Below, one piece after another: positions 15,611 through 48,109 of a stretch of DNA of 64,000 nucleotides. The notes beneath the pieces were generated by a model. That model saw only the letters and a list, made by a program, of their open reading frames with translations, did no database searches and had not been told where the DNA came from. The translations under genes and the position numbers were made by a program. Positions within the stretch are counted from its first letter, which is position 1. Each line of letters opens with the position of its first letter. Source of the stretch: Candidatus Eiseniibacteriota bacterium (lineage in GTDB: Bacteria; Eisenbacteria; RBG-16-71-46; JABDJR01); assembly GCA_963783375.1 (NCBI GenBank), contig CAWANH010000028.1:366491-430490 (forward strand). Direction: 5' to 3'.

Positions 15611-15901
15611 CCCGCACCCCTTTCGAGCCGCCCCCCACGGGGCGACCCACCCGCCAACGGGCGGCGCCGGGCATTTCCGGCCGCGCCGACGCCGCGTCGA
15701 TTCTGACAACTCCCGCCGGGAATCGGGGGATACACATTACCGAAACCCGATATTGACCGAAATGGACGATTTCAAGCGGCGAACGCCTCCCGAGCCGCTC
15801 CCCAGAGGCCGGAGAGCCGGCCGGCGGAACCCCGTTCGACGGGGTTGCCGGTCTGGTAGGCTTCTCCGAGCACGTCGAACGGGGGAAGCGGGGATATCCG
15901 G

Positions 15902-16726
15902 ATGACCACGAGCAAGCGGCGGCCGCGCCCGGTGGCGGTGCCGCCGGAGTTCTTCAGGCAACTGGCGGAGCTGGCCGCGGAGCGAACCCCGCTGGTCCTG
16001 GTGACCGTGTCCGAGGCCTCGGGGAGCGCGCCGGGAAAGGCCGGGGCCAAGATGATCGTGACCGCCGGCGCCACCCACGGCACCGTCGGCGGCGGCCGGG
16101 TGGAGAAGGCGGCCATCGCCCGCGCCCGCGAGCTTCTGGGCGGGTTCAGCGAGCCCGAGATCCAGCGGGTCAACGTGGTGCAGGACCTGGGTATGTCCTG
16201 CGGGGGGAGCATGAGCCTCATGTACGAAACGGTCACGCCGGCGCCTCGGCTGGTGATCTTCGGCGCCGGTCACATCTCCCAGCCCCTGGCCGCGGTGGCC
16301 GCGGTGGCCGGATTCGACGTCACCGTCTGCGATGAGCGCGCCGACTGGCTCACCGAGGAGCGCTTTCCCGACGCCCGGGAGCGGATCCTGGCCGGGTGGG
16401 ACGACGTGGTGGACCGGGCGAAGCTCGACGGGCAGACCTTCGTGGCCTCGGTCTCCCCCGGCCACGCCTTCGACAAGGAGATCGTGAAGCGGGTGGCGGC
16501 CGGGGCGCCCCGGCCGCGCTACGTGGGGGTGATCGGGAGCCGGCGTAAGGCGGCGATCCTGAAGAAGGAGCTGGTCGCGGAAGGCATCGACCCCGCCTTC
16601 GTGGAGGCGCTTCACATTCCGATGGGATTCAACATCGGGGCGGTGGAACCGCGGGAGATCGCGGTTTCGGTGGTGGCGGAGCTGGTGGCCGAGCTTCGCG
16701 GGATGAATCGGGCGGAGGGCTGGTAG
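15902..16726 (+). CDS. xdhC: XdhC / CoxI-family molybdenum-hydroxylase maturation (Mo-cofactor sulfuration/insertion) protein.
   Basis: N-terminal XdhC_CoxI region (FFRQLAELAAERTPLVLVTVSEASGSAPGKAGAKMIV...THGTVGGGRVE) and C-terminal Rossmann region (RLVIFGAGHISQPLAAVAAVAGFDVTVCDER). Confidence 0.8.
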   Translation: MTTSKRRPRPVAVPPEFFRQLAELAAERTPLVLVTVSEASGSAPGKAGAKMIVTAGATHGTVGGGRVEKAAIARARELLGGFSEPEIQRVNVVQDLGMSCGGSMSLMYETVTPAPRLVIFGAGHISQPLAAVAAVAGFDVTVCDERADWLTEERFPDARERILAGWDDVVDRAKLDGQTFVASVSPGHAFDKEIVKRVAAGAPRPRYVGVIGSRRKAAILKKELVAEGIDPAFVEALHIPMGFNIGAVEPREIAVSVVAELVAELRGMNRAEGW

Positions 16727-16808
16727 CCGTGCCCGCGGCGTTCACCGGGGCGCGCATGGATGCGCGCGCGCGCCGCCGGCGTCATCGCGCGGCGGGAGGA
16801 CGGTAGCC

Positions 16809-17477
16809 GTGCCCGCCTTCCACGAGAGCGCCGGGGGGGTCTCCCCGGGGACCCGCACCCGGGGGCTCCCGTTCCGGGTCCGCGCCGGAGGCTCGGTGGG
16901 CGCGGTGATCCTCGCCGCCGGCCTCGGCCGAAGGATGGGCGGCCGCCCCAAGGCCCTCCTGGACCTGGACGGAACCACGTTCCTCGAGCGGGTGGCCGCC
17001 GCGTGCCGCGAGGGGGGATGCGGCGCCCTGTGGGCGGTGACCAACCCCGAGGTTCCCGGGATCGACGACCTGGCCGGGACCCTGGGACTTCGCACCGTGC
17101 CCAACCCCGACTGGTCCCGCGGCATGTTCTCCAGCGTGGTGGAGGGGTTGCGCGAGGCCCTGGCCGACCGGCCGCGCTCCGACGGATTCCTGATCTTTCC
17201 GGTCGACCATCCGAGAGTCCGGGGCGAGACGGTGGCCCGGCTCCTGGAATCCTTCCGGGTGCGCCCGGCGGGATCGTGGGTGCGGCCCGGTTTCGGGGGG
17301 CGGGGCGGCCACCCGGTGGTGGTGGATGCGGCCTCGGCCGAGGCGCTCACCGCGATGAACCCGGAGATGGCGCTCCGGGACGCCATGGAGACGATCGGAC
17401 TCGCCCCGTTCACGGTGCCGGTGGACGACCCCGGCGTGCTTCGGAACGTGAACACCCCGGAGGATCTGGAGAGCTAG
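16809..17477 (+). CDS. mocA: MobA-like nucleotidyltransferase, probably molybdenum cofactor cytidylyltransferase (MocA / YgfJ-type accessory protein).
   Basis: VGAVILAAGLGRRMGGRPKALLDLDGTTFLE is the MobA-like NTP-transferase signature. It lies directly downstream of xdhC. Confidence 0.7.
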   Translation: MPAFHESAGGVSPGTRTRGLPFRVRAGGSVGAVILAAGLGRRMGGRPKALLDLDGTTFLERVAAACREGGCGALWAVTNPEVPGIDDLAGTLGLRTVPNPDWSRGMFSSVVEGLREALADRPRSDGFLIFPVDHPRVRGETVARLLESFRVRPAGSWVRPGFGGRGGHPVVVDAASAEALTAMNPEMALRDAMETIGLAPFTVPVDDPGVLRNVNTPEDLES

Positions 17478-17539
17478 CCGCCCCGGCGAAAACCGCTATC
17501 CAGACATTCTTCCCCCGCCGCCCGCCGTGATTTGCGACA

Positions 17540-19609
<2,070 letters not shown>

Positions 19610-19725: not shown

Positions 19726-20673
19726 TCAGTCCGGAACGATCCAGGTCCCGGTCTTGCCCTCCAACGCCTTCACGATCGTCTCGGGCTTGGTGACCAGGCC
19801 CTTCCCCTTGGGGTTGGCCTCGAGGAACGCGATCAGGGCCTCGATCTTCGGCCCCATGCTCCCGGCCAGGAAGTGCCCTTCGGCCTGGAGCTTCCTGGCC
19901 TCGCTGAGGGTCATCCGGTCGAGCCACTTCTGATCCGGCTTGTTGAAGTTCACCGCCACCTTCTCCACCGCGGTGGAGATGAGGAACAGGTCGGCCTTGA
20001 GGTCGGCGGCCAGGAGGCTCGAGGCGCGGTCCTTGTCGATCACCGCGTAGACCCCCTTGAGGATTCCCTTTTCGTCCTCGACCACCGGAACCCCGCCCCC
20101 GCCGACCGCGACCACGATGAACCCGTCGTCGATCAGGCGCTGGATCGCATCGCCTTCCACGATCTTCCGCGGAATGGGCGAGGCGATCATGCGCCGCCAG
20201 CCTCGGCCGGCGTCCTCGGTGACCGACCACCCCTGCTTCACGAAGACCTCGGCGTTCTCCTTGGTGGTGAACCCGCCGATCCCCTTGGTGGGGTTCTTGA
20301 AGCCGGGATCGTCCCGGTCAACCAGGACCTGGGTGACCAGCGAGACGACCTGGCGATGGATCCCCCGCTCCTTGAACTCGTTCAACAGCGCCTGGGAGAT
20401 CATGTAGCCGATCGCCCCCTGGGTATCGGCGCTGATCACGTCGAGCGGGGTCGAGTGGACCTCGGGATAGGCGAGCTCGTTCCGCCGCAGAATGAAACCC
20501 ACCTGGGGACCGTTCCCGTGGGTGACCACCACGTTCCAGCCTTGCTCGATCATGGCCGCGATGTGGTTGCAGGTCTCCACCACCGCGTGAACCTGGGACC
20601 CCACGTCCTCGTGCTGCTTGTCGTGAATCAGGGAATTGCCGCCGACGGCCACGACGGCCAGTTTGTCGCTCAT
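19726..20673 (-). CDS. arcC: Carbamate kinase.
   Basis: MSDKLAVVAVGGNSL...VVVTHGNGPQVG...VVAVGGGGVPVV, full-length amino-acid-kinase fold with carbamate-kinase signatures. 315 aa. Confidence 0.85.
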   Translation of the reverse strand: MSDKLAVVAVGGNSLIHDKQHEDVGSQVHAVVETCNHIAAMIEQGWNVVVTHGNGPQVGFILRRNELAYPEVHSTPLDVISADTQGAIGYMISQALLNEFKERGIHRQVVSLVTQVLVDRDDPGFKNPTKGIGGFTTKENAEVFVKQGWSVTEDAGRGWRRMIASPIPRKIVEGDAIQRLIDDGFIVVAVGGGGVPVVEDEKGILKGVYAVIDKDRASSLLAADLKADLFLISTAVEKVAVNFNKPDQKWLDRMTLSEARKLQAEGHFLAGSMGPKIEALIAFLEANPKGKGLVTKPETIVKALEGKTGTWIVPD

Positions 20674-20742
20674 ATAACCGCTCCTTCCACCCGGAGCCGG
20701 GACCGAAGCGGAGGCGCCCGCGCGCCCCCGCCGGCCGCGGTC

Positions 20743-21720
20743 CTACATCGTCAACGCCATGACCGCCTTCTGAGCGTGCATCCGGTTCTCGGCCTCGTCG
20801 TAGACCACCGAGTGCGGTCCGTCCATCACCCCGTCGGTGACCTCGACGTTCCGGTCGGCGGGAAGCGGGTGCATGTAGATCGCATCCGGCTTGGCCAGGG
20901 CCATCCGCCGCTCGTCGGTGATCCAGCTCGAGTACTTCTTGATGATCTTCGCGCCTTCGTCGGCGTCCGGGGTATGCACCATGGCGCCCCAGGACTTCGC
21001 ATAGACGATGTCCGCGTCCTTGAACGCGGCGTCCATGTCGTCCACCACCTCGAAACCGGCGCCGAACTTGCGCGCCTGCTCCCGGGCCTGTTCCATGATC
21101 CCGGGCATGAGCTTGAACTCCGGCGGGTGGGCCAGAACCACGTCCATGCCGAAGCGGGGCATCTGGAGGATCAGGGACTGGGGGACCGACATCGGCTTCT
21201 GATAGGACGAGGCGTAGGCCCACGACACCACCATCTTCTTCCGGCGGAGGTCCCGGCCCTTCTTCTCGACGATGGTCATGAGATCGGCCAGGCACTGGAA
21301 GGGATGGTAGATGTCGCACTGCATGTTGAGCACCGGCACCCGGGAGTGCTCGGCCACCGCGTTCAGGTAGCCGTTCCCCGCCCCCCAGTCCACCTGGCGA
21401 ATGGCGATCCCGTCGTAGTAGCGGCCGAATATCTGGCCGATCTCCTTGGGGGTGTCGCCGTGGGCGATCTGGGTGCTCTTGCTCTCGATGAACGCGGCGT
21501 GGCCGCCGAGCTGGGCCATCCCCGCCTCGAAGGAGCCGCGGGTGCGGGTGCTGGAGAAGAAGAAGAGCATGGCCAGGACCTTGTCGCGCAGGTAGGGATG
21601 AGCCTCCCCCAGGGCGCGCTTCCGCTTCAGGTCGAAGGCCACGTCGAGAACGGTCTCGACCTCTTCCTTCGTGAAATCGAGGTCGCCGATCAGGTCGCGA
21701 CCATGGAGCCAGGTCTGCAT
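20743..21720 (-). CDS. ygeW: YgeW-like carbamoyltransferase (the oxamate-carbamoyltransferase-type member of the ATCase/OTCase superfamily).
   Basis: STRTR motif (FFSSTRTRGSFE) and HPxQ motif (CDIYHPFQCLADL). Long collinear matches to E. coli YgeW: QIAHGDTPKEIG vs QIAHGETVRETA, and KKMVVSWAYASSYQKPMSVPQSLILQMPRFGMDVVLAHP vs KKIAMTWAYSPSYGKPLSVPQGIIGLMTRFGMDVTLAHP. Confidence 0.8.
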   Translation of the reverse strand: MQTWLHGRDLIGDLDFTKEEVETVLDVAFDLKRKRALGEAHPYLRDKVLAMLFFFSSTRTRGSFEAGMAQLGGHAAFIESKSTQIAHGDTPKEIGQIFGRYYDGIAIRQVDWGAGNGYLNAVAEHSRVPVLNMQCDIYHPFQCLADLMTIVEKKGRDLRRKKMVVSWAYASSYQKPMSVPQSLILQMPRFGMDVVLAHPPEFKLMPGIMEQAREQARKFGAGFEVVDDMDAAFKDADIVYAKSWGAMVHTPDADEGAKIIKKYSSWITDERRMALAKPDAIYMHPLPADRNVEVTDGVMDGPHSVVYDEAENRMHAQKAVMALTM

Positions 21721-21763
21721 TGGAGCCTCCTCTGCTGTCGTGCTGACGGGAGCGGGCGGGAAG

Positions 21764-22717
21764 TTACTCCATCGCCCCGAGGATGAGGGCGAGGAGCGAC
21801 ATCCGCATCACCACGCCGTTGAAAGCCTCCTGCCAGTAGCGCGACCAGCGGGTCATGTCCACGTCGGGCGGGATCTCGTCCATGCGCGGGAGGGAATGGA
21901 GGAGGATCGCGTCGGACTTCGCCTTGGTGGCCAGGAGCTCCCGGGTGATCTTGTAGTTGGCCGGGGTGAGGCCGGCGTCGCCGGTCCGCTCGTCGCGGGC
22001 CTTGGTGTAGTCGGGCTGGACCACCGGCTCGACCAGGATCACGTCGGCGTCGCCGATCGCCTGCTCCACGTGCTCCGCTTCCTTGAAGTTCAGGCTGTAC
22101 CCTTCGAGCTCCTCCTTGAACTCGGGGGTGAGGCTCATCTCGGGGGGAGAGACGAAGGTGACGGGGCAGTCGAACTGGGTGAGGGCATGGCCCAGCGAGT
22201 GCATGGTGCGCATGCGCATGTCCCCCACCGCCAGCCACTTGAGCCCGTCGAGCCGGCCCTTCTCCTGGAGAACGGTGTAGAGGTCGGTGAGGACCTGGGT
22301 GGGGTGTTCTCCCCAGCCGTCCCCGCCGTTGATGATCGGGATCGAGGCCCACTTGGCCGCCTCGTGGGGCGCGCCCTGCTGGAAGTGGCGCATCACGATG
22401 ACGTCGCCGTAGTACTCCAGCATCTTGACCGTGTCCTTGATCGTCTCCTGGTAGAAGTCGCCGGCCCGGGTCATCTTGGCGTCGGCGAACCCGGTCACAT
22501 GACCACCCAGGCGGTGCATGGCCGCCTCGTGGGCCAGCCGGGTGCGGGTGGACGGCTGGTAGAACGCCGTCACCATGGTCTTTTCCTTCAAGATGTCGCT
22601 GTTCCGGCGGCTGCGCGCGATCGGCTCCAGCTCCTTGGCCACATCGAAAACCCGCATGAACTCATTGCGCTCAAAATCCTTGAGCGAAAGAATGTCGCGT
22701 CCTGAAAAGCTCTTCAT
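21764..22717 (-). CDS. Aspartate/ornithine-carbamoyltransferase-family protein (PyrB-like size and motifs).
   Basis: FYQPSTRTRLAHE, GEHPTQ, LLHSLPR (HxLP), 317 aa. The substrate cannot be assigned from sequence alone. Confidence 0.65.
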   Translation of the reverse strand: MKSFSGRDILSLKDFERNEFMRVFDVAKELEPIARSRRNSDILKEKTMVTAFYQPSTRTRLAHEAAMHRLGGHVTGFADAKMTRAGDFYQETIKDTVKMLEYYGDVIVMRHFQQGAPHEAAKWASIPIINGGDGWGEHPTQVLTDLYTVLQEKGRLDGLKWLAVGDMRMRTMHSLGHALTQFDCPVTFVSPPEMSLTPEFKEELEGYSLNFKEAEHVEQAIGDADVILVEPVVQPDYTKARDERTGDAGLTPANYKITRELLATKAKSDAILLHSLPRMDEIPPDVDMTRWSRYWQEAFNGVVMRMSLLALILGAME

Positions 22718-22973
22718 TGCCGTTCTCCTGAGAATTCAGTCCCGCCGCACCGCACGTCACCGCGCAGCCGGTCATCCGGCCCTTCCCGCCCCGAGCGCGG
22801 TAATGCGCTCCGCGAGCCGTCCGGGCCAATCACGAGCCCCATTTGAGCTCAACCTTTCGCAAGCTGCGAATAGCCGACCATCATACCGAATCCCGCGGCC
22901 CGGAACCATATGGGGAATGCGGACACTTCGGCGCCAATCCCGGCCGACCGCCGTGAGGGGGACTACCGCCTCA

Positions 22974-24687: not shown

Positions 24688-27414
24688 CTACTTCATCAGG
24701 AGCGCCTTCCGCACCTGGCTCTGCTCCCCCGCTCGGAGCCGGATCAGGTAGAACCCCGCGGCGGCACGGCCGCCGGTCGCCAGCCGGCCGTCCCATGATG
24801 CCTCGTGCGCCCCCGCCGGTTCCGTCCCCTCCACCAGCATCGCCACGCGGCGCCCCTGCACGTCGAACACGTCCACGCGGACCTGGGTCGCACGCGGCAG
24901 GGTGTAGGCGATCCGCGTCGCTTCCCGGAACGGGTTCGGGCTGGCCGGCGCCATGGCGAACGCGAACCGAGCCGCCGCCGCCGGGAGCGTCACCGGCCCC
25001 AGCCACCTCGTCCCCCCGCTTCGCGCCCGCTCGGCCAGCCAGTAGTCGGCGGCGGTGGCCGGAGCTTCGGCGTCCACGAACTCGTAGTGGGTGGAACCGG
25101 AGACCAGCCCGTCGTTCAGCTTCACCCGCTCCCCCGCTCCCACCTGGCGGTACACGTCGAACCCGGCGTGGTCCGTCGCCTCGGCCACCGACCACCGGAG
25201 CGCCGCGCCTTCCGGCGCGCGGGTGACGGTGAAGCTCGACAGCCTCACCGGGATGGGCTGCTCCGCGGAGCGGAACCAGTCGATGCTCCGGTTGAACACC
25301 TCCTGGGCCTGGGCGGGCTTCATCCAGTAGAGATCGAAGCCGAACCACTGGACCGCCCCCTGGGAGGGATTCGGGTTCATGTCGTGCCAGCGGATCGCGG
25401 TAAGCTTCAGGTCGTAGTGTGAGTTCAGCGCCTTGGCCCGGTAGACATAGAGCGAGTCGAGTACCCCGGTGAACCCCGGGATGTCCCCGGCTTCGATCGG
25501 GTCGAACACCGCGTCCGCGAACGGGATCGACTGCCGGAAGGGATTCCAGCGGTCGGGATCCTGTTGGAGGCCCGGATAAATGACCGGCTTCCCGGGGAAG
25601 GGATCCGCCCCTACCATGTTGTCGGTCGAACGGGTGCCCAGCCGGTTCCCGGCCAGGGCGTTCTCGATCCGACCCGAGGCCAGCTTCATGAAATCGTAGG
25701 CGAAGTCCCCGGGCGCGGGGGCCAAGGGATAATTGGTGGGCGCGCTGGTCACGCCCCGCATCATGCCGGCGACGGTCTGGCTACCCACCACCCACAACTG
25801 TCCTCCGGCGGCCATGTACGCCTGCAGGTTACGGTTCCGGTACCCGGTCGACTGGTAGAGCGCGCTCAGCCCGTTGTAGCCGAGGTCCGCGTACCAGATG
25901 AGGAGCCGGTAACGTCCCAAGACACTTAGATCCGGGGGCAGCGGCGGGAGATACTGCGAGTCGTTCAACCCGTAACAATCATAGCTCCACACGCTGTCGG
26001 AGGGGGTGCCGCCGAAGCGCCCCGAGTTGTCGAAGAGCTGCTGCCAGAAGGCGTCCACCGTCTGGTCGGTCGGCTCGACGGTCCCGCCCAGACTCTTCAG
26101 GTCGTCCACCCACAGCGTGCTGCGGTCGAAGGGCATGGGGACCACGTGCAGAACCACGGCCAGCCGGCTGATCGAGCCCTGGCTGTCCCGCGCCTCCACG
26201 TACAGGGTGTGGTCGCCCGGGTCGGGGAACCGGATCTCGGGGAGGGCGTTGCGATCGGCCCACGCCGACCAGCCCGTCTCACCGTTCGGATCGGTAAGAT
26301 CGATACCCCAACGATTCTCCGCGCATACTCCGCCGTACGTTTCCGCGCTGCAGAACACCCGGACGTGTAGAGGGGTGGCCTGGGGAACGTCCCGCTCCAC
26401 CAGGGTGTCGGACCCGCTTCCCTCGATGAGACCCAGAATCGGGTCGTCCAGGAGAATCGTGGGGCTGGGCGGGACGGCGAGCGCTTTGATCTTGACGACG
26501 TTTCTGGCGATATCCAGGAACGGCTCGGCGGCGCCGTCGGCGTCCACCGCCCGCACGCCAAGGAGATACTCCCCGCCCGGCTCCAGGCTCAGCTGGACGG
26601 GGAAGGCGTCCGTGCTCTCGTAGATCCACGGCCCGCCCCGCGTGAACAGGAAGCTGATGGGCACCAGATAGAGGGGCGGTGGGGGATACAGCGTGTCGAC
26701 GCGCAGGAGCTTGTAGAGGTAGCCCGCGGGGGAATCGGGGGTGTCGGCGTCCGTCCCGGCCGGTACCACCTGCAGGTTGGGCCCGGCGTAGATGTAGCTG
26801 GAGCTGGTCTGGCCGGAGAGGTCGGGGCTCGCGATCACCGACTGCGGGGTATGGTTGAGAGCCTTGAAGCTCGATCCTGTCCCGCCGTAGGCCCCGTTAC
26901 CGTCCAGCGCCCGGACGTAGAGCTCGTGCAGGCCGTAGTAGTCGCCCGACGGGGCAGGACAGCACCCCACGACGGCGGAGTCCGGATAAGGAGCGGTGAA
27001 CACGAAGTTCCGGCTCGTGTCCGGGGTCTCGATCCAGTCGAAGGTGTAGACGGTGCCGCCGTCGTCCTTGGAGACCCGCAGGGTGTCGCTATCCGGCCCC
27101 GGCCCCGGAACGACCTGGATCGTGATCCCCGGGTAGTCCTCGGGGTGCAGCACTTCGTCCTCGGTGAACGCGGCGGGCGGATCCAGCGCGTACTCGGACC
27201 GGACGATCCCCACGCCGCCGCCATCGACGCTCCAGATCGCATCGCTTCGATAGGGCACGGAGGTGCCCGCCGCAGGAGCCAGAAGGGTCACGACTGGCTC
27301 GGCAAGTACCCCCGGCACCGATCCCGGTCCGATCAAGCCCAGGATCAGAAGGCACGCGGAGAGAATCAAGCGATCCGGGTTCTTCCAAGAGGAAGTCGAG
27401 TCCGTCCTGCGCAT
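24688..27414 (-). CDS. Secreted protein (908 aa) with signal peptide and C-terminal T9SS type-A sorting domain; function unknown.
   Basis: ATG at 27414: MRRTDSTSSWKNPDRLILSACLLILGLIGPGSVPGVLA. C-terminus ASPNPFREATRIAYTLPRATQVRVDVFDVQGRRVAMLVEG...AGFYLIRLRAGEQSQVRKALLMK. Upstream codons of ORF 24688..28935 are antisense to the GH53 gene and were rejected. Confidence 0.6.
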   Translation of the reverse strand: MRRTDSTSSWKNPDRLILSACLLILGLIGPGSVPGVLAEPVVTLLAPAAGTSVPYRSDAIWSVDGGGVGIVRSEYALDPPAAFTEDEVLHPEDYPGITIQVVPGPGPDSDTLRVSKDDGGTVYTFDWIETPDTSRNFVFTAPYPDSAVVGCCPAPSGDYYGLHELYVRALDGNGAYGGTGSSFKALNHTPQSVIASPDLSGQTSSSYIYAGPNLQVVPAGTDADTPDSPAGYLYKLLRVDTLYPPPPLYLVPISFLFTRGGPWIYESTDAFPVQLSLEPGGEYLLGVRAVDADGAAEPFLDIARNVVKIKALAVPPSPTILLDDPILGLIEGSGSDTLVERDVPQATPLHVRVFCSAETYGGVCAENRWGIDLTDPNGETGWSAWADRNALPEIRFPDPGDHTLYVEARDSQGSISRLAVVLHVVPMPFDRSTLWVDDLKSLGGTVEPTDQTVDAFWQQLFDNSGRFGGTPSDSVWSYDCYGLNDSQYLPPLPPDLSVLGRYRLLIWYADLGYNGLSALYQSTGYRNRNLQAYMAAGGQLWVVGSQTVAGMMRGVTSAPTNYPLAPAPGDFAYDFMKLASGRIENALAGNRLGTRSTDNMVGADPFPGKPVIYPGLQQDPDRWNPFRQSIPFADAVFDPIEAGDIPGFTGVLDSLYVYRAKALNSHYDLKLTAIRWHDMNPNPSQGAVQWFGFDLYWMKPAQAQEVFNRSIDWFRSAEQPIPVRLSSFTVTRAPEGAALRWSVAEATDHAGFDVYRQVGAGERVKLNDGLVSGSTHYEFVDAEAPATAADYWLAERARSGGTRWLGPVTLPAAAARFAFAMAPASPNPFREATRIAYTLPRATQVRVDVFDVQGRRVAMLVEGTEPAGAHEASWDGRLATGGRAAAGFYLIRLRAGEQSQVRKALLMK

Positions 27415-29852: not shown

Positions 29853-29933
29853 CTCCGGGCGCCCGCACCGCCCGCCGAGGCCTCGGCGGGCGCGCACCGG
29901 GGCCGGGGCCGCCGCCGGCCGGCCGAGAAGACC

Positions 29934-30488
29934 CTACCCGGCTACCCGCACCAGCAACGCCTTCAGCGAATCGTAGTTGGCGGGGACGGAGAGGTCGTGC
30001 TCGGTGAGGTTGTAGACCGCGGCGACGCGGTTCTCGGGGTCGAGCACCACGACGTCCCGGTAGGTCACCTTCCAGTCGCTCCAGACGTGCTCGGAGTCGG
30101 TGTCCTGGAGCCAGGGGATGGTCCTTCCGGACACGATGAGGGAGTTTCCCGACTCCTGCCCGGCTTCGTTGATCCCCAGGATCCGGATCGGGTGTGCGGT
30201 GTTGACGCTGTCGATCTCGCCCTGCATCCGGTTCAGGAAGCCGAACTGGCTCCGGCAGTAGCCTCAGGTCGAGTGTCCGAAGTACCAGGCCGAGACGTCG
30301 CCCAGCTCGTCGCGGGGGGAGACCGTGGAGTCGTGGGTGGCGGAGTTGGGGTTGACGTCGGTGAGGGCGAAATCGGGAACCTCGTCCCCGACCGGCACCC
30401 GGGGTTTGGTCGGGGTGTCGTCGCCGCATCCCGCGGCCAGGATCAGGGCAGCAAACAGGATCGGGAGCAGGTGTCTGAGTCGGAACAT
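29934..30488 (-). CDS. Candidate selenoprotein: thioredoxin-fold (TlpA/redoxin-like) lipoprotein with in-frame UGA (30266..30264) at the first position of the CxxC motif (read as U-G-Y-C), 184 codons.
   Basis: ATG 30488 preceded by GAGGGGAGACC. MFRLRHLLPILFAALILAAGCGDD (signal peptide + lipobox-like AGC) ...VPDFALTDVNPNS...SAWYFGHST-[TGA]-GYCRSQFGFLNR-MQGEIDSVNTAHPIRILGINEAGQESGNSLIVSGRTIPWLQDTDSEHVWSDWKVTYRDVVVLDPENRVAAVY. ORFs 30264..30590 and 29934..30227 are in the same frame and separated only by the TGA and 12 codons. Hairpin GGAGCC-AGUUC-GGCUUC (30253..30237) begins 10 nt 3' of the UGA. Confidence 0.55.
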
Positions 30489-30725
30489 GGTCTCCCCTCG
30501 GGCGGACGGTGCGGCGAAGCGGCGGGGATCGGGCGGTTGAGCGCCGGTCCGGGCGCGTCCGTTCATGCTACCAGATCGCTCCGGGCCCACCTTCCCGGAC
30601 GCGGCGGGAAACTTTTGAACCTTTCCGGTCCGGGACTCGTCCTACCTAGTGGCCGACGAGGTGCGGCCGCCCCTCAGCTTACCCATAACCTGTTTGCAAA
30701 CAAGCAGTTGGAAAGCGGAGTCGCC

Positions 30726-40117: not shown

Positions 40118-41482
40118 CTACAATCGCTTCAGCCGCTCCCACACCTTGGGAGCCTCGGCCGAGGCCTCGGCGCGGATCGCCTCGGGGTCGGCGGTGAGCA
40201 GTCGCCCATCCCGCACCACCAGGCGCCCCGCCACCAGTACGTGCTCCACGTTCCTCGCTTCGCCCTGACCGCTCGCCGGCGCTTCGAACTCCAACCCGTC
40301 GCGGGCCGCGGCGTCGAACACCGCCGCGTCGGCGGCGACGTCGGCTCCCAGGGGCGCGAAGGGGAGGCCGAAGCGTTCGGCGGCCAGTTCCCCACCGGCC
40401 TCGAGCCGTTCCCGGAGCGTCGCCGGGGGTTCGCCCGCTTCCCCGCCCGGGCCGCCGGCCGCGCCCGCGCCCGCGCCCCCCGGCGCGAACGCCGTCACTT
40501 CCTTCCACATCTCGGCCGGATACCCGTCGGTCCCGAGCGCCACCCGCCCGCTCGCCCCGAGCGCGCCCGGGTAGCCCACCCGGTTCCCGATATTCGACCG
40601 CGGGTTCTGCACCAGCCAGAGCCCCCGGTCCGCGGCCCGGCGCACCAGTTCGGCGTCCAGATGCACCCCATGGGCCAGAATGGAGCCGGGGGGCAACGCG
40701 TCCAGCGCGAGCAACCGCTCCAAGGGCCCGGGATATCCCCGTTCCGCCGCGTCGCGGACGTCGGCCGCGTCCTCGGCGAGGTGGACGTGCATCACCGTGT
40801 CCAGCTCGCGGCAGAGGTTCCCGGCCTCGCGGATCGTCTCGTCCGAAACGGTGAACGAGGCGTGGAGCCCGACCACCCCGCGAACCGTCCTCTTCCGGTT
40901 CCCCCGGATGAAGCGACGGCACTCGGCCAGGCCCCGCCGGGCCTCCTCGCGGCCGCCGTTTCGCTCGGTGGCCCCGTAGCAGAGGACGGCCCGGATTCCC
41001 ATCTCGTCGCAGACGTCGGCGATCACCTCCAGCGAACCCTCGATGAAACCGGGGGATTCGTGGTGGTCGAAGAGGGTGGTGGTTCCGGCCAGAAGCGCCT
41101 CGGCCGCGTAGAGCCGCGCCGAAACCCGCAAGGACGCTTCATCCAGCGCCCGGTCCAGCCGCCACCAGACCCGCTCCAGGATCTGGAGAAAGTTCCCGGG
41201 GGGCGGTTCCGGCGGGGGCATGCCGAAGGGGGCGAGCGCGCTGTAGATGTGGGTGTGGGCGTTCACCCGGCCGGGGACGATCCGCGCGCCCGCGCAGTCC
41301 ACCGGAACCGGGGCGGCAAAGGCGGGACCGCCGACGGGGTCGCTTGCCGGCGGGAGGTCGGTGAACTCCGCGGGACCGGTCGCCGCCGGGCGCGAGCCCG
41401 GGCCGAACCAGAGGACCCGGTCCCCGCCGCTCAAGAGGACGTTCCCGGAGGCGTCGGGGCCGAGCTCGACCGGAGGGTTCAC
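40118..41482 (-). CDS. ssnA: Amidohydrolase-superfamily protein, SsnA / chlorohydrolase / aminohydrolase type.
   Basis: [17 protein letters not shown] is the metal-binding HxH. ...[11 protein letters not shown]...[13 protein letters not shown]...[11 protein letters not shown]...LAHGVHLD...LGTDGY. Located directly downstream of the xdhD-like gene, as ssnA is in the E. coli ygfK-ssnA-ygfM-xdhD cluster. Confidence 0.65.
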
Positions 41483-41504
41483 GCGCGGGCCGCCGGCGAC
41501 GCCG

Positions 41505-44139
<2,635 letters not shown>

Positions 44140-44147
<8 letters not shown>

Positions 44148-45009
44148 TTCCGTTTTTCCTCGCGCCGAGCACCATCCGGCGAACCGCCCGTCCCAGGACG
44201 TGGAGGCGGTAGGCCGCGGTGGAACGTACGTCGTCGATGGGAACCACCTCGCCCATGGCCGCTCGCGCGGCGCCGTCGGCCAGGCTCTCGTCGGGCACCA
44301 TGCCCTCGCAGATCCGCTCGACGGCGGTGAGGCGAACCGGGGTCGCGGCCACGCTCCCCGCCCCGAAGCGGACGAGAGAGAGCCGTCCCCCATGCTCCCG
44401 CGCGCTCATGGCCAGGACCACCTTGCTGATGGACTGGGCTTCGCGGGTCCCGATCTTCCAGAACTGCTGGATCGACCCCGCCGGCGGATCGGGGATCCAG
44501 ATCCAGGCGATCAACTCTCCGGCCCCGAGCGCGGTCTTCCGGTAGCCGGTGTGAAACTTGTCGTAGTGAACCTCCCGCTCCCCCTGGGGACCGGCCAGGG
44601 TCACCGAGGCGTCCAGCGCCAACAGCACCGGAAGCGAGTCCCCGGCGGGGCTCGCGTTGGCCATGTTCCCCCCCAGGGTGGCTCGATTCTGGATCTGCCA
44701 CCCCCCCACCTGGGAGGCGGCTTCGGCCAGGATCGGAAGCGCGTTCCGAAGCCCCTCGTGCCGCTGGATCTCGGTGAAGGTGGTGGCGGCGCCGATCCGC
44801 CAACCCCCGTCGTGGCGGGTGATGCCGCGAAGCTCCGGGATGGACATGAGGTTCAGGATCGGTCCGTAGTTCGCGCGCTCCTCCAGGGTCCGCACCATGA
44901 GATCGGTGCACCCGGCCACCGGTCGGAGACCGGGCTCCCGCCGGAGGGCGTCGATCGCTTCGGCCAAGGACCTGGGGGTGACGGCGGCCGGCGCCGCGGC
45001 CCGGGTCAC
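44140..45009 (-). CDS. Molybdenum hydroxylase FAD-binding subunit (CoxM / XdhB / YgfM-like).
   Basis: GTG 45009 overlapping the upstream TGA (GTGA). TPRSLAEAIDALRREPGLRPVAGCTDLMVRT...RIGAATTFTEIQ...NRATLGGNMANASPAGDSLPVLLALDASV (FAD_binding_5 / CO_deh_flav_C). The first ~220 codons of ORF 44140..45678 are low-complexity antisense and were rejected. Confidence 0.75.
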
Positions 45010-45461
45010 TTCGCCGCCTCCCCTTCGAGGCCCCGGAGGATGGCCTCGTAGCCCGTGCACCGGCAGAGGTTCCCGGCCAGGGCGGTCCGGATCTCCTCGC
45101 GCTCCAGCCGGTCCTTCCCCTGGGCCAGCCGCCACGCGGTCACGATGATCCCGGGGGTGCAGGCGCCGCACTGGGTGCCGCCCTCCCGGATGAACCGGTC
45201 GAGGAACGCCCGCGCCTCGGGGATGGCCGCCACCCCCTCCACGCTCAGGATCTCCTTCCCCTCGCACTGCACCAGCGGCACCAGGCAGGAGAGCACCGGC
45301 TCCCCGTCCATGAGCACGGTGCAGGCCCCGCATTCGCCCTCGCCGCAGCCTTCCTTGGTGCCGGTGAGACCGAGATCCTCCCGGAGCACGTCCAGGAGGC
45401 GGTCCATGGGAGCGCCGTCCACCGAGACCGGTTTGCCGTTCAGCCGGAACGCGACCTTCAT
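45006..45461 (-). CDS. Molybdenum hydroxylase [2Fe-2S] small subunit (CoxS / XdhC-iron-sulfur type).
   Basis: ATG 45461 overlaps the upstream stop (ATGA). MKVAFRLNGKPVSVDGAPMDRLLDVLREDLGLTGTKEGCGEGECGACTVLMDG...QCGACTPGI...CRCTGY. 151 aa. Confidence 0.8.
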   Translation of the reverse strand: MKVAFRLNGKPVSVDGAPMDRLLDVLREDLGLTGTKEGCGEGECGACTVLMDGEPVLSCLVPLVQCEGKEILSVEGVAAIPEARAFLDRFIREGGTQCGACTPGIIVTAWRLAQGKDRLEREEIRTALAGNLCRCTGYEAILRGLEGEAAK

Positions 45462-47730
45462 CGCGTCGCCTCCTTCTCCGCCGCCTCCGCCGCGGTGAGC
45501 CCGGCCTCGCGCCAGGCGTGGAGCCGCTCCGGAGTGGCCGGGATGTCCGGGGCCACGATGCCGGTGGCGTTTTCCACCGCCTGGACGAAGGCGGGGGCGC
45601 CGCCGTCCATGGGAAGCTCCCCCACCCCCTTGGCCCCCGAGGGGCCCCCTTCCCACGGCCGTTCCAGGAGCTCCACATCCATCCGCGGGGTGTCCTTGAT
45701 GGTGGGGATGATGTAGGTGGCGAGGCGGTCGTTCAGGTAGCGGCCGTTCTCGAGCTTCATCTCCTCGAGGTAGGCCCACCCGATGGCCTGGAGGGTGCCG
45801 CCCTCGATCTGCCCGCGGCAGAGCGCGGGATGCACCACCTTCCCCACCTCGGTCACCACCGTGGCGGTCACCGGTCTCACCTCCAGGGTGTCGGGATCCA
45901 CCTCCACCTCGATCACGTCCGCCCCCCAGCCGTAGGTGGCGTAGGCCGTCCCCTGATAGGTCGTCTCGTCGAAGGTCTGCCAGGCCGGGGGCTCGTGGAG
46001 AATCGTGCGCTCCAGGTTCCCGTGGCCGGCGAACACGTCCTTGGCGCGGTCGCGAAAGCTCCCGAGGGCGCCGTCGCCCCCGATCACCCGGCCGCCCTCG
46101 ATCCGCAGCCCCTCGCCGAGCTTGGCCAGCACGTCGTCCCGGAGCCCGGCCACCGCCCGGGCGATGGTTCCCCCCACCACCATGGTGGTCCGCGACGCCA
46201 CCGTGGGCCCGGAGTCGGGCACCTTGCCGGTGTCGGCGTCGGGAAAGACCACGTCGTCGAGTTCGACCCCGGCGGCGTCGGCGGCGATCAGCGGGAGCAC
46301 GGTCATCGCCCCCTGCCCCATGTCGGTCATGGCGGTCAGCACCTCGATCCGCCCGTCGGCGGTGAGCCGCACGGTGACCGGGGAGCGCATGCGGTGCTCC
46401 CCCTGGCCGGTGAACCCGGCCCCGTGGAAGTACAGGCTGAGGCCGATCCCGCGTAGCGGCTCGCCGTCGGTCCGGCGGGCCCGCGCCTCCTCCAGCTCCA
46501 GCCAGCGCCGTCGGAAGCCGGTCTTCGCTTCCACCCCCTCCAGGCACAACCGGCCCGAGGCGTCGTCCTTCAGCACCTGCCCGGTGGCCAGGCTGTCTCC
46601 GGGCCCGAGCACGTTCCGCTCGCGGACGGTGTAGGGATCGATTCCCAGCGCGCGCCCGATCCGGTCCATGTGCCGCTCGGCGGCGAAGATCACCTGGGGG
46701 GCGCCGAAGCCCCGGAAGGCGGCGTTGGGGGCGGTGTTGGTGCGGAGCGCCCTCCCCCGGATACGAACGTGGGGACAGCGGTAGGCGCCGGTGGCGTGGA
46801 GCACCGCGCGCGACAGCACCACCGGCGACAGGGTCCGGTAGGCGCCCCCGTCCAGGTCCACCAGGACGTCCATGGCGTTCAGGCGGCCGTCCTTCATGAC
46901 CCCGGTCTTGATGCGAACCCGGCCGGGATGGCGCTTGGTGGTGGCCACGATGTCCTCGTGGCGATCGTAGACCAGCTTCACCGGGCGCCCGGCGGCCCGG
47001 GCCAGGAGCGCGGCGTGGATGGCGATGAGGCTCGGGTAGTCCTCTTTCCCTCCGAAGCCGCCGCCGATGGCCGCGGGGCGGACGTGGAGCTGGTTCTCGC
47101 CCAGATCGAAGACGTGCAGCAGCGCGTTGTGCACGTAGAACGGGCACTGCATCGATCCGATCATGATCCAGGGCGCCGTCCGGCTCGAACCAGGCCAGCA
47201 TCCCCTGGGGCTCGATGTAGATGTGCTCCTGGTGGCCGGTCCGGTACTCCCCCTCCACGATCGCGTCGGACCCGGCCAGGCCGCGCTCCACGTCGCCGTG
47301 GTTCATGGCCGAGCTCGTTCAGGGGCTCGACCGCTTCGGCCTCCTCCCAGGTGAGGACCGGGGGGAGCGGCTCGTACTCGACTTCGATGGCCTGAAGCGC
47401 GAGGCGGGCGTCCAGGCGGGTGGGCGCGGCGACCAGGGCCACCGCCTCGCCCACGTGGCGGACGACATCCGAGGCCAGGACCGGCCAGGTGTCGTCGAGG
47501 AGCTGGACGCCGTTCGCCCCGGGAAGGTCGCGGGCGGTCACGCAGACCGAGCCTTCCGGCGCCCGGTCGGGGCGCCACTTCAGGCTCTTGATCCGTGCGT
47601 GCGGATGGGGGGAGCGCAGGGTCGCTCCAAAGACCATGCCGGGGACGGTGAGGTCGTCGGTGTACCGGGCGCCGCCGGTGACCTTGGCCAGGCCGTCCGG
47701 CCTTGGGGGGCTTTCGCCGATCTTGATCAT
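45458..47730 (-). CDS. Molybdenum hydroxylase molybdopterin-binding large subunit (xanthine dehydrogenase / CO dehydrogenase family), with two apparent 1-nt frame breaks (about 47310 and about 47170).
   Basis: N-terminal piece MIKIGESPPRPDGLAKVTGGARYTDDLTVPGMVFGATLRSPHPHARIKS (ORF 47161..47730); middle piece NHGDVERGLAGSDAIVEGEYRTGHQEHIYIEPQGMLAWFEPDGAL (start of ORF 45006..47306); remainder IMIGSMQCPFYVHNALLHVFDLGENQLHVRPAAIGGGFGGKEDY... (ORF 45458..47164). The three pieces are collinear with XDH-family large subunits. Confidence 0.75.
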
Positions 47731-48080: not shown

Positions 48081-48109
48081 TTGACTCGGCCTGGTTATGG
48101 GCATATGCT
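48081..48109 (+). promoter_or_regulatory. Candidate sigma70 promoter: -35 TTGACT (48081-48086), 17-nt spacer, -10 TATGCT (48104-48109), with RBS AAGGAGAGG (48121-48129) before the ATG at 48132.
   Basis: Direct reading of the 400-bp divergent intergenic region between the Mo-hydroxylase operon (-) and the DUF134 gene (+). Confidence 0.45.

What the first reader, a model, noticed from the sequence alone, without database searches (positions are those of the whole stretch)
29934..30488. In-frame TGA at the first Cys position of a thioredoxin CxxC motif: candidate selenoprotein (U-G-Y-C) with a downstream SECIS-like hairpin
Two same-frame minus-strand ORFs (30264..30590 and 29934..30227) are separated only by a TGA plus 12 codons. 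Joined, they give one complete TlpA/redoxin-like lipoprotein: signal peptide + Cys lipobox, PDFALTD...SAWYFGHST-[UGA]-GYCRSQ..., then the rest of the fold. The TGA sits exactly where the nucleophilic Cys of CxxC is expected and the resolving Cys follows two residues later, so two independent proteins split here would be structurally meaningless. A 6-bp stem / 5-nt loop hairpin (GGAGCC AGUUC GGCUUC, 30253..30237) starts 10 nt 3' of the UGA, the position where bacterial SECIS elements lie. Sec replacing the first Cys of a redox motif is the commonest kind of bacterial selenoprotein. The window also encodes molybdenum-hydroxylase maturation genes of the type linked to selenium-dependent hydroxylases, consistent with a selenium-using organism. 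The alternative is a nonsense-mutated pseudogene.
Basis: partly seen in the sequence, partly recalled or inferred. Interest (0 to 1): 0.7.

Follow-up and report, generated by a model that had tools for sequence, protein, structure and literature searches.

The report
Exported thioredoxin-fold selenoprotein (TUGYCR family)

Summary
A minus-strand ORF (30488..29934, 184 codons) carries one in-frame TGA (30266..30264) in ...FGHST-U-GYCR..., followed after 10 nt by a 6-bp/5-nt-loop hairpin.

The selenoprotein reading is strongly supported:
- In 80 related loci from at least five phyla, the aligned codon is TGA in 75 of 86 domain copies and TGC/TGT in 8.
- The hairpin pairs in 97.7% of cells. Five of its six pairs show compensatory changes, and the loop is always AGUUY.
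- 70 of 76 TGA copies (window included) keep all six pairs. None of the 11 Cys or other copies does.
- TGA is the ordinary stop of 19 of 34 window genes. This is the only TGA in the 64 kb with coding-like sequence on both sides.

The joined product matches NCBIfam NF053656.1, "TUGYCR motif thioredoxin fold (seleno)protein", at 230.9 bits (cutoff 100), so the family is already curated.

A model of a Cys homologue is closest to the extracytoplasmic thiol-disulfide oxidoreductases ResA, DsbE and Etrx. The substrate is unknown and there are no conserved neighbours.

Sec machinery genes could not be checked, because only the window is available. Public gene calls split this gene in two.

Verdict: correct, already known, low-to-moderate interest.

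The parts
29934..30488 (-). Complete selenoprotein gene: ATG 30488..30486, Sec-UGA 30266..30264, TAG stop 29936..29934. Product is 184 aa and a member of NCBIfam NF053656 (TUGYCR motif thioredoxin fold selenoprotein).
   Evidence: sequence and translation. (NF053656.1, E 4.8e-69, 230.9 bits against cutoff 100, profile positions 1-145 of 146). (GC3 0.82 upstream and 0.95 downstream of the TGA). (public gene calls split it into 74 aa + 97 aa).
30264..30266 (-). UGA codon read as selenocysteine (residue 75), the first position of the U-G-Y-C redox motif.
   Evidence: the aligned codon is TGA in 75 of 86 homologous domain copies and TGC/TGT in 8; it aligns with Cys in the full-length homologues P0003, P0004, P0006, P0007, P0009 and P0014; it is the only TGA in the window flanked by coding-like sequence on both sides.
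30255..30257 (-). TGC codon of the resolving cysteine (Cys78) of the UxxC motif.
   Evidence: It is an invariant column in alignment A1. It is present in all TGA and TGC/TGT copies.
30237..30253 (-). SECIS hairpin: 6-bp stem (30253..30248 with 30242..30237) and 5-nt loop AGUUC (30247..30243). It starts 10 nt after the UGA, so the loop starts 16 nt after it. It lies within codons R-S-Q-F-G-F.
   Evidence: fold, -7.4 kcal/mol, z -2.95. (76 sequences: 97.7% of cells paired, 5 of 6 pairs with compensatory changes, 0 of 500 shuffles reach the observed values, slid controls at most 52.5%). (RNAalifold predicts the same hairpin). (70 of 76 TGA copies have 6/6 pairs against 0 of 11 Cys/other copies; loop AGUUY in 76 of 76).
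30426..30488 (-). Signal peptide with lipobox (MFRLRHLLPILFAALILAAG|C, Cys21), predicting an exported, lipid-anchored protein.
   Evidence: Read directly from the sequence. Comparable lipoboxes or signal peptides are present in the full-length homologues P0001-P0004, P0007 and P0014. No signal-peptide predictor was available, so this is inference.
30057..30059 (-). Codon of the invariant Arg144 (..VTYRDVVVLD..), which aligns with the cis-proline position of TlpA-like thioredoxin-fold proteins.
   Evidence: Invariant column. The HMM alignment to PDB 2lrn_A places this Arg on the Pro of 'GFP' (weak E-value of 0.098). In the model of P0003 the equivalent Arg132 directly precedes strand 133-137.

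Best explanation
The region is one gene for a 184-residue exported lipoprotein with a thioredoxin fold. Its active site is Thr-Sec-Gly-Tyr-Cys-Arg.

Translation step. The UGA at 30266..30264 is decoded as selenocysteine. [quoted passage not shown] SelB delivers Sec to the UGA in place of release factor 2. The hairpin lies inside the coding sequence and dictates the codons of the R-S-Q-F-G-F stretch.

Protein step. The finished protein would be exported through the Sec translocon, lipid-modified at Cys21 and anchored outside the cytoplasm. There the selenol of Sec75 is the attacking nucleophile, and Cys78 resolves the intermediate as a selenenylsulfide. This is a ResA/TlpA/Etrx-type extracytoplasmic thiol-disulfide oxidoreductase made faster by selenium.

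What is shown: the UGA/Cys pairing, the hairpin and its covariation, the link between hairpin and UGA, membership of the curated TUGYCR family, and the fold.

What is inferred: SelB binding, actual selenium incorporation, export and lipidation, the direction of the redox reaction, and the substrate.

The confidence of 0.93 applies to 'genuine Sec-encoding gene of the TUGYCR family'. Confidence in the specific reductase function is much lower, about 0.6.
For: (1) The sequence is as described.

(2) Membership of NF053656.1, 'TUGYCR motif thioredoxin fold (seleno)protein': 230.9 bits against a cutoff of 100, over the full profile length.

(3) 80 loci were recovered with a peptide pattern that does not involve the Sec codon. 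They come from Eisenbacteria, Krumholzibacteria, Myxococcota (including the cultured Plesiocystis pacifica SIR-1), Planctomycetota, Verrucomicrobiota and others. TGA sits at the aligned codon in 75 of 86 domain copies and TGC/TGT in 8. The protein sequence is conserved in frame on both sides of it.

(4) About 45 of 82 database homologues are 101-106-aa fragments that start just after the TGA, and several others end at ...SAWYFGHAT. These are the signature of mis-split selenoprotein genes. Two 'Trp' variants, P0002 and P0011, have a stop codon at that position in table 11, and their DNA shows TGA.

(5) Hairpin covariation: 97.7% of cells paired, 5 of 6 pairs with double changes, 56 compensatory cells against 13.4 expected, 0 of 500 shuffles reaching the observed values, and slid controls at most 52.5%. 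RNAalifold finds the same structure independently. The synonymous third base of the Gly codon always pairs with the base opposite it (pair 17-27: 73 of 73 paired, GC 51, CG 20).

(6) The hairpin is tied to UGA and not to the protein sequence. 70 of 76 TGA copies have 6/6 pairs. None of the 11 Cys/other copies does, including L037 and L054, which keep Q-F-G but use CAA and so lose the loop G.

(7) The hairpin fits the published bacterial SECIS model (loop 3-9 nt, stem 4-16 bp, G in the first two loop positions, 16-37 nt from UGA to loop; PMC13188914). Here the loop is 5 nt, the stem 6 bp, G is at loop position 2, and the spacing is 16 nt.

(8) UGA is a normal stop here, ending 19 of 34 domain-supported genes. 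This is the only coding-flanked TGA in the window.

(9) The AF2 model of the 56%-identical Cys homologue P0003 has pLDDT 93.6. Its best PDB matches are ResA, DsbE and the pneumococcal surface lipoprotein thioredoxins Etrx1/2, with TM about 0.8.

(10) The window also encodes a TIGR03311 selenium-dependent xanthine dehydrogenase above cutoff. This is consistent with a selenophosphate-making organism.
Against: No selA, selB, selD or tRNA-Sec lies in the window, and the rest of the genome could not be searched. The organism's Sec-decoding capacity is therefore inferred and not shown.

No Rfam family matches the hairpin. This is weak evidence: nothing from Rfam's 4227 families matched even at E up to 10, and bacterial SECIS elements share little sequence or structure with one another (PMC13188914).

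The hairpin is short. Alone it reaches -7.4 kcal/mol, just short of the -7.5 threshold of the published model, and the single-sequence fold of the wider context is not significant (z -0.57).

The functional assignment is weak. Pfam AhpC-TSA and Redoxin hits are below their gathering scores. No gene neighbour is conserved. The cis-Pro typical of ResA/TlpA appears to be replaced by an invariant Arg, as in peroxiredoxins, so a peroxidase-like chemistry is not excluded.

Selenium incorporation has not been demonstrated for any family member that I could find.
Confidence: 0.93

Rival explanations
1. Same selenoprotein and same decoding mechanism, but the chemistry is peroxidase-like and not disulfide reduction. 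Sec75 would be oxidised by a peroxide to a selenenic acid, assisted by the invariant Arg144. It would then be resolved by Cys78, as in peroxiredoxins and glutathione peroxidases.
For: The best Pfam hit is AhpC/TSA across the whole domain (profile 1-123 of 124, E 7e-4). The invariant Arg aligns with the cis-Pro position of a TlpA-like protein, which is the position of the catalytic Arg in peroxiredoxins (the peroxiredoxin comparison is from my own knowledge of the thioredoxin-fold suprafamily). The profile also aligns U-G with the catalytic C-G of GPx7. A peroxiredoxin (Bcp4) is among the fold matches (rank 43).
Against: The Pfam hit is below the gathering score (20 against 26 bits). The peroxiredoxin PxxxTxxC motif is absent; here it is T-U-x-x-C. 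The GPx catalytic Gln position is not conserved. A UxxC dyad at the N-terminus of helix 1 is the hallmark of disulfide oxidoreductases. The best structural matches are ResA, DsbE and Etrx. All the alignments that support this rival have weak E-values (0.1-0.5).
Confidence: 0.25
2. Nonsense-mutated pseudogene: a Cys codon (TGC/TGT) mutated to TGA, and the downstream half is no longer translated.
For: A single base separates TGC/TGT from TGA. No Sec machinery genes are visible in the window.
Against: The same TGA is present in 75 of 86 homologous domain copies from several phyla. The downstream half keeps strong coding signal (GC3 0.95) and conserved motifs (PWLQDT, YRDVVVLD, YNLTEHDL). A covarying hairpin accompanies the TGA and is absent from the Cys forms. 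The family is curated as a selenoprotein.
Confidence: 0.01
3. UGA is read through or reassigned without selenium: an alternative genetic code (UGA = Trp or Gly) or near-cognate suppression inserting Trp or Cys.
For: Some public gene calls translate the codon as W (P0001, P0002, P0011). P0008 shows G at the position.
Against: TGA terminates 19 of 34 domain-supported genes in this window, and only one coding-flanked TGA exists in 64 kb. The W calls checked, P0002 and P0011, have a stop codon there in table 11, and the DNA shows TGA, so they are artefacts of the gene caller's code choice. The position pairs with Cys, not Trp or Gly, in genuine sense-codon homologues. A SECIS-type hairpin is specifically associated with the TGA.
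Confidence: 0.02
4. Two separate small genes: a 74-aa secreted peptide ending at the TGA, and an independent 97-aa protein starting at ATG 30227. This is how public annotation calls them.
For: Gene callers produce exactly this split. An in-frame ATG exists 12 codons after the TGA.
Against: The split would cut a thioredoxin fold through its active site. The 12 codons between the TGA and the ATG, including the invariant resolving Cys and Q-F-G, are conserved in frame in all homologues. Cys-containing homologues are single continuous ORFs. The downstream ATG (Met of ..NRMQ..) is an internal conserved residue and not a conserved start.
Confidence: 0.01

Closest known systems
NCBIfam NF053656.1 'redoxin_TUGYCR' - TUGYCR motif thioredoxin fold (seleno)protein
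   Same: Full-length match (residues 37-181 to profile 1-145 of 146, 230.9 bits against cutoff 100). The window protein carries the eponymous motif exactly (S-T-U-G-Y-C-R). The family name already states that members can be selenoproteins.
   Different: Nothing substantive: this is a member. The database entry gives no function. I found no paper that names the family, and the May 2026 review table of prokaryotic selenoprotein families does not list this accession.
ResA / TlpA / CcmG(DsbE) / Etrx extracytoplasmic thiol-disulfide oxidoreductases (e.g. PDB 1su9, 3gl3, 4hqz)
   Same: Thioredoxin fold with N-terminal extension and central insert. The best structural matches have TM about 0.8 normalised to the target. 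The redox dyad XxxC sits at the start of helix 1. The location is membrane-anchored or lipoprotein and extracytoplasmic, and Etrx1/2 are also surface lipoproteins.
   Different: Only 16-25% identity. Pfam Redoxin and AhpC-TSA scores are below gathering. Sec replaces the nucleophilic Cys. An invariant Arg sits where these proteins have the cis-Pro (weak alignment). There is no linkage to cytochrome c maturation, CcdA/DsbD or methionine sulfoxide reductase genes.
Previously listed UxxC thioredoxin-fold selenoprotein families (Prx-like thiol:disulfide oxidoreductase, thiol:disulfide interchange protein, thiol-disulfide isomerase-like protein, redoxin family protein; Table 1 of PMC13188914)
   Same: Sec at the first position of UxxC in an AhpC/TSA-, redoxin- or TlpA-like fold. 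All were predicted by Sec/Cys pairing plus a downstream bacterial SECIS.
   Different: Whether any of those generically named entries is the same family could not be determined. They are defined by other domain identifiers (PF00578, PF13098, cd02966, PF08534), and the example accessions could not be retrieved here.
Bacterial SECIS elements (consensus model in PMC13188914; E. coli fdhF minimal SECIS)
   Same: A stem-loop immediately 3' of the UGA inside the ORF. Loop 5 nt, stem 6 bp, G at loop position 2 followed by U, and 16 nt from UGA to loop: all within the published model. From my own knowledge, the E. coli fdhF minimal element is likewise a 17-nt upper stem-loop about 11 nt from the UGA, with a loop G-U contacted by SelB.
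   Different: It sits at the short, minimal end of the model. There is no conserved lower stem or bulged U. The hairpin alone reaches -7.4 kcal/mol, marginally weaker than the model's -7.5 threshold. No Rfam family matched it.

Membership tests
NCBIfam NF053656 (TUGYCR motif thioredoxin fold selenoprotein) | Score against the family HMM above the curated cutoff, over the full domain | tested here: met
   230.9 bits against cutoff 100, E 4.8e-69, profile positions 1-145 of 146.
NCBIfam NF053656 (TUGYCR motif thioredoxin fold selenoprotein) | T-U/C-G-Y-C-R active-site motif, with UGA (or Cys) at the second position | tested here: met
   ...GHS-T-[TGA]-G-Y-C-R-SQ...; the same column is TGA in 75 and TGC/TGT in 8 of 86 homologous copies.
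Bacterial selenoprotein gene (SelB/SECIS-dependent UGA recoding) | In-frame UGA aligning with Cys in sense-codon homologues, with conserved coding sequence on both sides | tested here: met
Bacterial selenoprotein gene (SelB/SECIS-dependent UGA recoding) | Stem-loop immediately downstream that fits the bSECIS model (loop 3-9 nt, stem 4-16 bp, G in first two loop nt, 16-37 nt UGA-to-loop, MFE at most -7.5) | tested here: met
   loop 5 nt, stem 6 bp, loop A-G-U-U-Y, spacing 16 nt. The energy criterion is borderline: -7.4 kcal/mol for the bare hairpin and -13.1 for UGA plus 39 nt.
Bacterial selenoprotein gene (SelB/SECIS-dependent UGA recoding) | The structure is conserved by compensatory change and is specific to UGA-containing homologues | tested here: met
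   97.7% of cells paired, 5 of 6 pairs compensatory, 0 of 500 shuffles. 70 of 76 Sec copies are fully paired against 0 of 11 Cys/other copies.
Bacterial selenoprotein gene (SelB/SECIS-dependent UGA recoding) | The genome encodes selA, selB, selC (tRNA-Sec) and selD | not testable with these tools
   None is in the window or near homologues. The 2.39-Mb source contig could not be read beyond the window. There is only indirect support: a TIGR03311 Se-dependent xanthine dehydrogenase in the window.
Bacterial selenoprotein gene (SelB/SECIS-dependent UGA recoding) | Selenium demonstrably incorporated at the UGA position | not testable with these tools
   This needs 75Se labelling or mass spectrometry. 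No such report was found for this family.
TlpA/ResA/CcmG-like extracytoplasmic thiol-disulfide oxidoreductases | Thioredoxin fold with TlpA-type N-terminal hairpin and central insert | tested here: met
   on the model of the 56%-identical Cys homologue P0003: ResA, DsbE and Etrx are the top hits, E 5e-10, TM 0.8 normalised to the target.
TlpA/ResA/CcmG-like extracytoplasmic thiol-disulfide oxidoreductases | Sequence membership (Pfam Redoxin / AhpC-TSA above gathering score) | tested here: not met
   AhpC-TSA 20 bits (cutoff 26); Redoxin 13 bits (cutoff 26.6).
TlpA/ResA/CcmG-like extracytoplasmic thiol-disulfide oxidoreductases | Conserved cis-proline loop facing the CxxC motif | tested here: inconclusive
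   the invariant Arg144 aligns with the Pro of 'GFP' in 2lrn_A, which suggests the cis-Pro is replaced. The alignment E-value is only 0.098, and model coordinates could not be inspected.
Peroxiredoxin (AhpC/TSA) | PxxxTxxC peroxidatic motif plus conserved catalytic Arg | tested here: not met
   The motif here is G-H-S-T-U-G-Y-C (T directly precedes U). An invariant Arg is present at the expected place, but the Pfam score is below gathering.
Glutathione peroxidase | Catalytic Sec/Cys followed by Gly, plus conserved Gln, Trp and Asn | tested here: not met
   U-G aligns with C-G of GPx7, but the Gln position of 'NQFG' is a variable residue (mostly Glu) in this family. E-value 0.31.

The most novel reading that the evidence does not exclude
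The family is catalogued by name only, and I found no paper about it. The most novel reading still open has three parts.

(a) These are cell-surface or periplasmic selenoproteins with a hybrid active site: a UxxC dyad of the disulfide-oxidoreductase type, together with a peroxiredoxin-style Arg in place of the cis-Pro. They may carry out an extracytoplasmic redox reaction not yet described.

(b) Some members are polyproteins with several Sec residues. L078 has five tandem domains, with Sec in the first and the fifth.

(c) The minimal 17-nt SECIS with an invariant AGUUY loop has travelled with the gene across at least five phyla. It would make a compact, portable, naturally validated Sec-insertion cassette whose sequence imposes the conserved Q-F-G on the protein.
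Probability: 0.2. Interest if true: 0.5.

Novelty: already known. Interest (0 to 1): 0.3.

Why it matters
Scientifically, it adds one more instance to a selenoprotein family that NCBI already curates.

The practical value is for annotation. In the public gene calls for this contig the gene is cut into 74-aa and 97-aa 'hypothetical proteins'. More than half of the database homologues are similar fragments, or are mistranslated with Trp at the Sec position.

The data assembled here are about as clean a computational validation of a bacterial SECIS as one can get: 76 Sec copies, a matched set of Cys copies that lack the hairpin, and compensatory changes at synonymous sites. They could serve to benchmark SECIS predictors.

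Biologically, the gene marks the organism (an Eisenbacteria-like, 70% GC bacterium) as a probable selenium user that places a selenoenzyme outside the cytoplasm. The function of the family remains open.

Tried and rejected
- Rfam at gathering threshold on the whole window, and at E up to 10 on 29900-30600. Only chance-level hits appeared (a miRNA and an IRES). This is weak evidence, because bacterial SECIS elements share little sequence or structure with one another.
- Single-sequence fold significance of the 76-nt context (z -0.57). Not significant, so I used comparative data instead.
- tRNA-Sec search in the window and in 60 homologous loci. None was found. This is expected and uninformative, because sel genes need not be linked to the selenoprotein gene.
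- Pfam and NCBIfam scans of about 45 window ORFs for selA, selB and selD. None was found.
- Conserved gene-neighbourhood analysis within 7 kb either side of the Sec codon in 81 loci. No neighbour is shared by more than 6 loci, so context gives no functional clue.
I modelled the Cys homologue P0003 instead.
- Synonymous/non-synonymous comparison with the near-identical locus L001. The downstream half is identical at the nucleotide level and the upstream part of L001 is masked, so it is uninformative. My first slice in that call was also off by one base. Codon-position differences to more distant loci were saturated.
- Literature. 'TUGYCR' occurs in no searchable paper. Haft & Tolstoy 2025 (PMC12013261) is not held. 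Peng et al. 2016 does not mention the family.
- GPx-like and peroxiredoxin membership were considered and rejected on motif grounds.
Full report
**1. The observation**

On the minus strand an ORF starts at ATG 30488..30486. It is preceded by a purine-rich GAGGGGAGA and runs to TAG 29936..29934, with a single in-frame TGA at 30266..30264.

The joined product is 184 aa. It begins MFRLRHLLPILFAALILAAG|C (signal peptide plus lipobox) and reads ...PDFALTDVNPNS...SAWYFGHST-[UGA]-GYCRSQFGFLNRMQ....

The hairpin GGAGCC-AGUUC-GGCUUC occupies 30253..30237, 10 nt after the UGA. It is part of the minimum-free-energy structure. Alone it folds at -7.4 kcal/mol, z = -2.95. The 76-nt context is not significantly structured on its own (z = -0.57).

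Both halves look coding: GC3 is 0.82 and 0.95 in a 70% GC window. Among all TGA codons of the 64 kb on both strands, this is the only one flanked in frame by at least 40 codons of strongly coding-like sequence on each side. TGA is otherwise an ordinary stop here, ending 19 of 34 domain-supported genes.

**2. What the product is**

Pfam gives only sub-threshold AhpC/TSA (20 bits) and Redoxin (13 bits) hits. NCBIfam gives a full-length match to NF053656.1, 'redoxin_TUGYCR: TUGYCR motif thioredoxin fold (seleno)protein'. The match has E 4.8e-69 and 230.9 bits against a curated cutoff of 100, covering profile positions 1-145 of 146. The window protein carries the eponymous motif literally (S-T-U-G-Y-C-R). 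The family, and the fact that it contains selenocysteine, is therefore already known to NCBI's curators.

**3. Comparative evidence for Sec**

A search of 5.8 billion proteins returned 82 homologues.
- A handful are full length, with Cys at the TGA column: CGYC, CQIC, CSYC, CSIC and CPLC.
- About 45 are 101-106-residue fragments that begin just after the TGA position.
- Several end at ...SAWYFGHAT.

This is the typical footprint of selenoprotein genes cut by gene callers. Three 'full-length' entries show Trp at the column. For the two whose DNA could be fetched, the position is a stop codon in table 11, and the DNA shows TGA. They are therefore Sec forms translated with the wrong code.

A scan of one genome per species recovered 80 loci. 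A pattern ending at the Sec column can only match Cys or Trp codons, so the TGA-carrying loci must have been found through the PWLQD pattern, which does not involve the Sec codon. The loci come from Eisenbacteria, Krumholzibacteria, Myxococcota (including the cultured Plesiocystis pacifica SIR-1 and a Nannocystaceae isolate), Planctomycetota, Verrucomicrobiota, Acidobacteriota and others.

By tblastn, the codon aligned with residue 75 is TGA in 75 of 86 domain copies and TGC/TGT in 8. It is a non-Cys codon only in three inner domains of a five-domain protein. The resolving Cys78 is invariant. A pseudogene, a split gene or a sequencing error cannot explain this pattern.

**4. The SECIS element**

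The 48 nt from the UGA align without gaps in 76 Sec copies. I tested the structure of 13 unpaired, 6 paired, 5 loop and 6 paired positions.
- 97.7% of cells form standard pairs.
- Five of six pairs show changes on both sides, with 56 compensatory cells against 13.4 expected.
- No shuffle out of 500 reaches the observed pairing, covariation score or number of pair types.
- Sliding the 3' arm by 1-3 nt drops pairing to 26-53%.
- RNAalifold predicts the same hairpin unaided.

Examples of stem variants are GGAGCC/GGCUUC (window), GUAGCC/GGCUAC, GUGGCC/GGCCAC, GUGCCC/GGGCAC, GCGCCC/GGGCGC and GAAACC/GGUUUC. Another is GGUCGC/GCGAUC, where even the conserved Gly becomes Ala to keep the pair.

Pair 17-27 joins a non-synonymous base to the synonymous third base of the Gly codon, and it is paired in 73 of 73 distinct sequences. 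The constraint therefore acts on the RNA and not only on the protein.

The loop is AGUUY in all 76 copies.

The decisive control is the set of homologues without TGA. None of these 11 has six pairs (median three), against 70 of 76 Sec copies. L037 and L054, which retain Q-F-G, use CAA for Gln and lose the loop G.

The element fits the published bacterial SECIS model: loop 3-9 nt, stem 4-16 bp, G within the first two loop nucleotides, and 16-37 nt between UGA and loop (PMC13188914). Here the values are 5 nt, 6 bp, G at position 2, and exactly 16 nt. Only the energy criterion is borderline (-7.4 against -7.5 kcal/mol for the bare hairpin; -13.1 with context).

Rfam returned nothing relevant, which I regard as weak evidence.

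**5. Fold and likely chemistry**

The joined window sequence could not be submitted for modelling, so I modelled the 56%-identical Cys homologue P0003 with a 20-sequence alignment. The model has pLDDT 93.6 and pTM 0.84. Foldseek against the PDB puts the following on top, at E about 1e-9 and TM about 0.8 normalised to the target:
- ResA;
- a DsbE/CcmG-like protein;
- a Bacillus thiol-disulfide oxidoreductase;
- the pneumococcal surface lipoprotein thioredoxins Etrx1/2.

With the N-terminal lipobox this supports an extracytoplasmic, membrane-anchored thiol-disulfide oxidoreductase. Some relatives carry C-terminal dockerin, TSP3, Calx-beta or PEP-CTERM-like tails, which point the same way. Sec75 would be the nucleophile and Cys78 would resolve a selenenylsulfide.

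Two features blur this assignment. The profile's best Pfam relative is AhpC/TSA. A weak HMM alignment to the TlpA-like 2lrn_A places the family's invariant Arg144 on the cis-Pro of that protein. From my own knowledge of the thioredoxin-fold suprafamily, this is the position peroxiredoxins use for their catalytic Arg. I therefore keep a peroxidase-like chemistry as a 25% rival.

GPx membership is rejected because the catalytic Gln position is not conserved.

No gene neighbour is conserved across 81 loci. In the window the neighbours are DUF2721, DUF5916 and a class I fumarase. The substrate is therefore unknown.

**6. Selenium context**

There is no tRNA in the window. No selA, selB or selD appears among about 45 scanned ORFs. 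The window comes from a 2.39-Mb ENA contig that I could not read beyond the window, so the organism's Sec machinery is untested.

Indirect support comes from a purine-catabolism-type cluster in the window:
- A protein at 41508-44405 (-) scores 948.9 bits against TIGR03311, 'selenium-dependent xanthine dehydrogenase' (cutoff 830.45).
- SsnA-like and YgfK-like proteins score below their cutoffs.
- XdhC and a MocA-like cytidylyltransferase are present.

The TIGR03311 assignment does imply selenophosphate use.

**7. Comparison with what is known, and novelty**

The gene is a straightforward member of NF053656. In mechanism it is a standard bacterial selenoprotein gene, with Sec at the first position of UxxC, an intragenic SECIS, and Cys orthologues.

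I found no paper naming the family, and the May 2026 review table does not list the accession. It may hide under a generic label such as 'redoxin family protein' or 'thiol-disulfide isomerase-like protein', but I could not resolve that.

The rating is 'already known'. The residual interest lies in three points: the systematic mis-annotation, the unusually clean SECIS covariation data set, and the uncharacterised biochemistry of an exported selenoprotein with an Arg at the cis-Pro position.

**8. Verdict**

- Confidence that this is a genuine Sec-encoding gene of the TUGYCR family is about 0.93.
- Confidence in the specific reductase function is much lower.
- Interest: 0.3.

Noticed in passing
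window 41508-44405 (-), with 40121-41581 (-), 17531-19606 (+), 15860-17474 (+), 19729-22735 (-): A purine-catabolism-type cluster resembling the E. coli ygeW-xdhD region. One protein is above the cutoff of TIGR03311 'selenium-dependent xanthine dehydrogenase' (948.9 against 830 bits). The cluster also holds SsnA-like and YgfK-like proteins (below their cutoffs), XdhC, a MocA-like cytidylyltransferase, a carbamate-kinase-like protein and two carbamoyltransferases. No YqeB/YqeC markers were seen.
   Followed up: partly
window 45461-47302 (-) and upstream 47303-48420: A second molybdenum hydroxylase large subunit begins only at profile position 62 of MoCoBD_1 and lacks the a/b-hammerhead domain. 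The in-frame sequence upstream has several stops and looks out of frame. It may be a frameshift, a truncated paralogue or an assembly error.
   Followed up: partly
window ~9900-10832 (+), same stop-to-stop segment as a pyruvate-kinase barrel domain at 8793-~9400: A TIGR04282 (DUF2064) 'arsenosugar biosynthesis glycosyltransferase' scores above cutoff (158.5 against 134 bits). It shares one open frame with a partial pyruvate kinase domain, so the gene boundaries are unclear.
   Followed up: no
L078:8870-11370 (Candidatus Eisenbacteria MAG MFD01476.bin.1.183): One continuous reading frame of about 830 codons encodes five tandem TUGYCR-type domains. The first and fifth have TGA plus the hairpin. 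The three inner ones have lost the Sec/Cys (Q-TRD, D-TAC, D-PAC) and the hairpin. It is a two-Sec polyprotein. L018 and L021 also carry two Sec copies close together.
   Followed up: partly
L081:2740-3294 (ENA ERZ25039549 contig_24514, the window's probable source) and the protein hits: Public gene calls split this selenoprotein into 74-aa and 97-aa hypothetical proteins. About 45 of 82 database homologues are such C-terminal fragments. Some callers instead used an alternative code and wrote Trp at the Sec position (P0002 and P0011 verified; P0001 not verifiable). P0008 shows Gly there, which may be a code-25 call.
   Followed up: partly
window 186-1211 (-), 24691-27399 (-), 49655-50980 (-), 59307-62489 (-): Several large secreted proteins end in FlgD_ig / Por_Secre_tail (type IX secretion) C-terminal domains. 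The closest homologues of the target come from Eisenbacteria and Krumholzibacteria MAGs. Together these suggest an Eisenbacteria-like (FCB-group) origin for this 70% GC window.
   Followed up: no
window 10835-12526: About 1.7 kb with no ORF of high third-position GC on either strand in my scan. No Rfam hit or tRNA lies there. Its content is unexplained.
   Followed up: no
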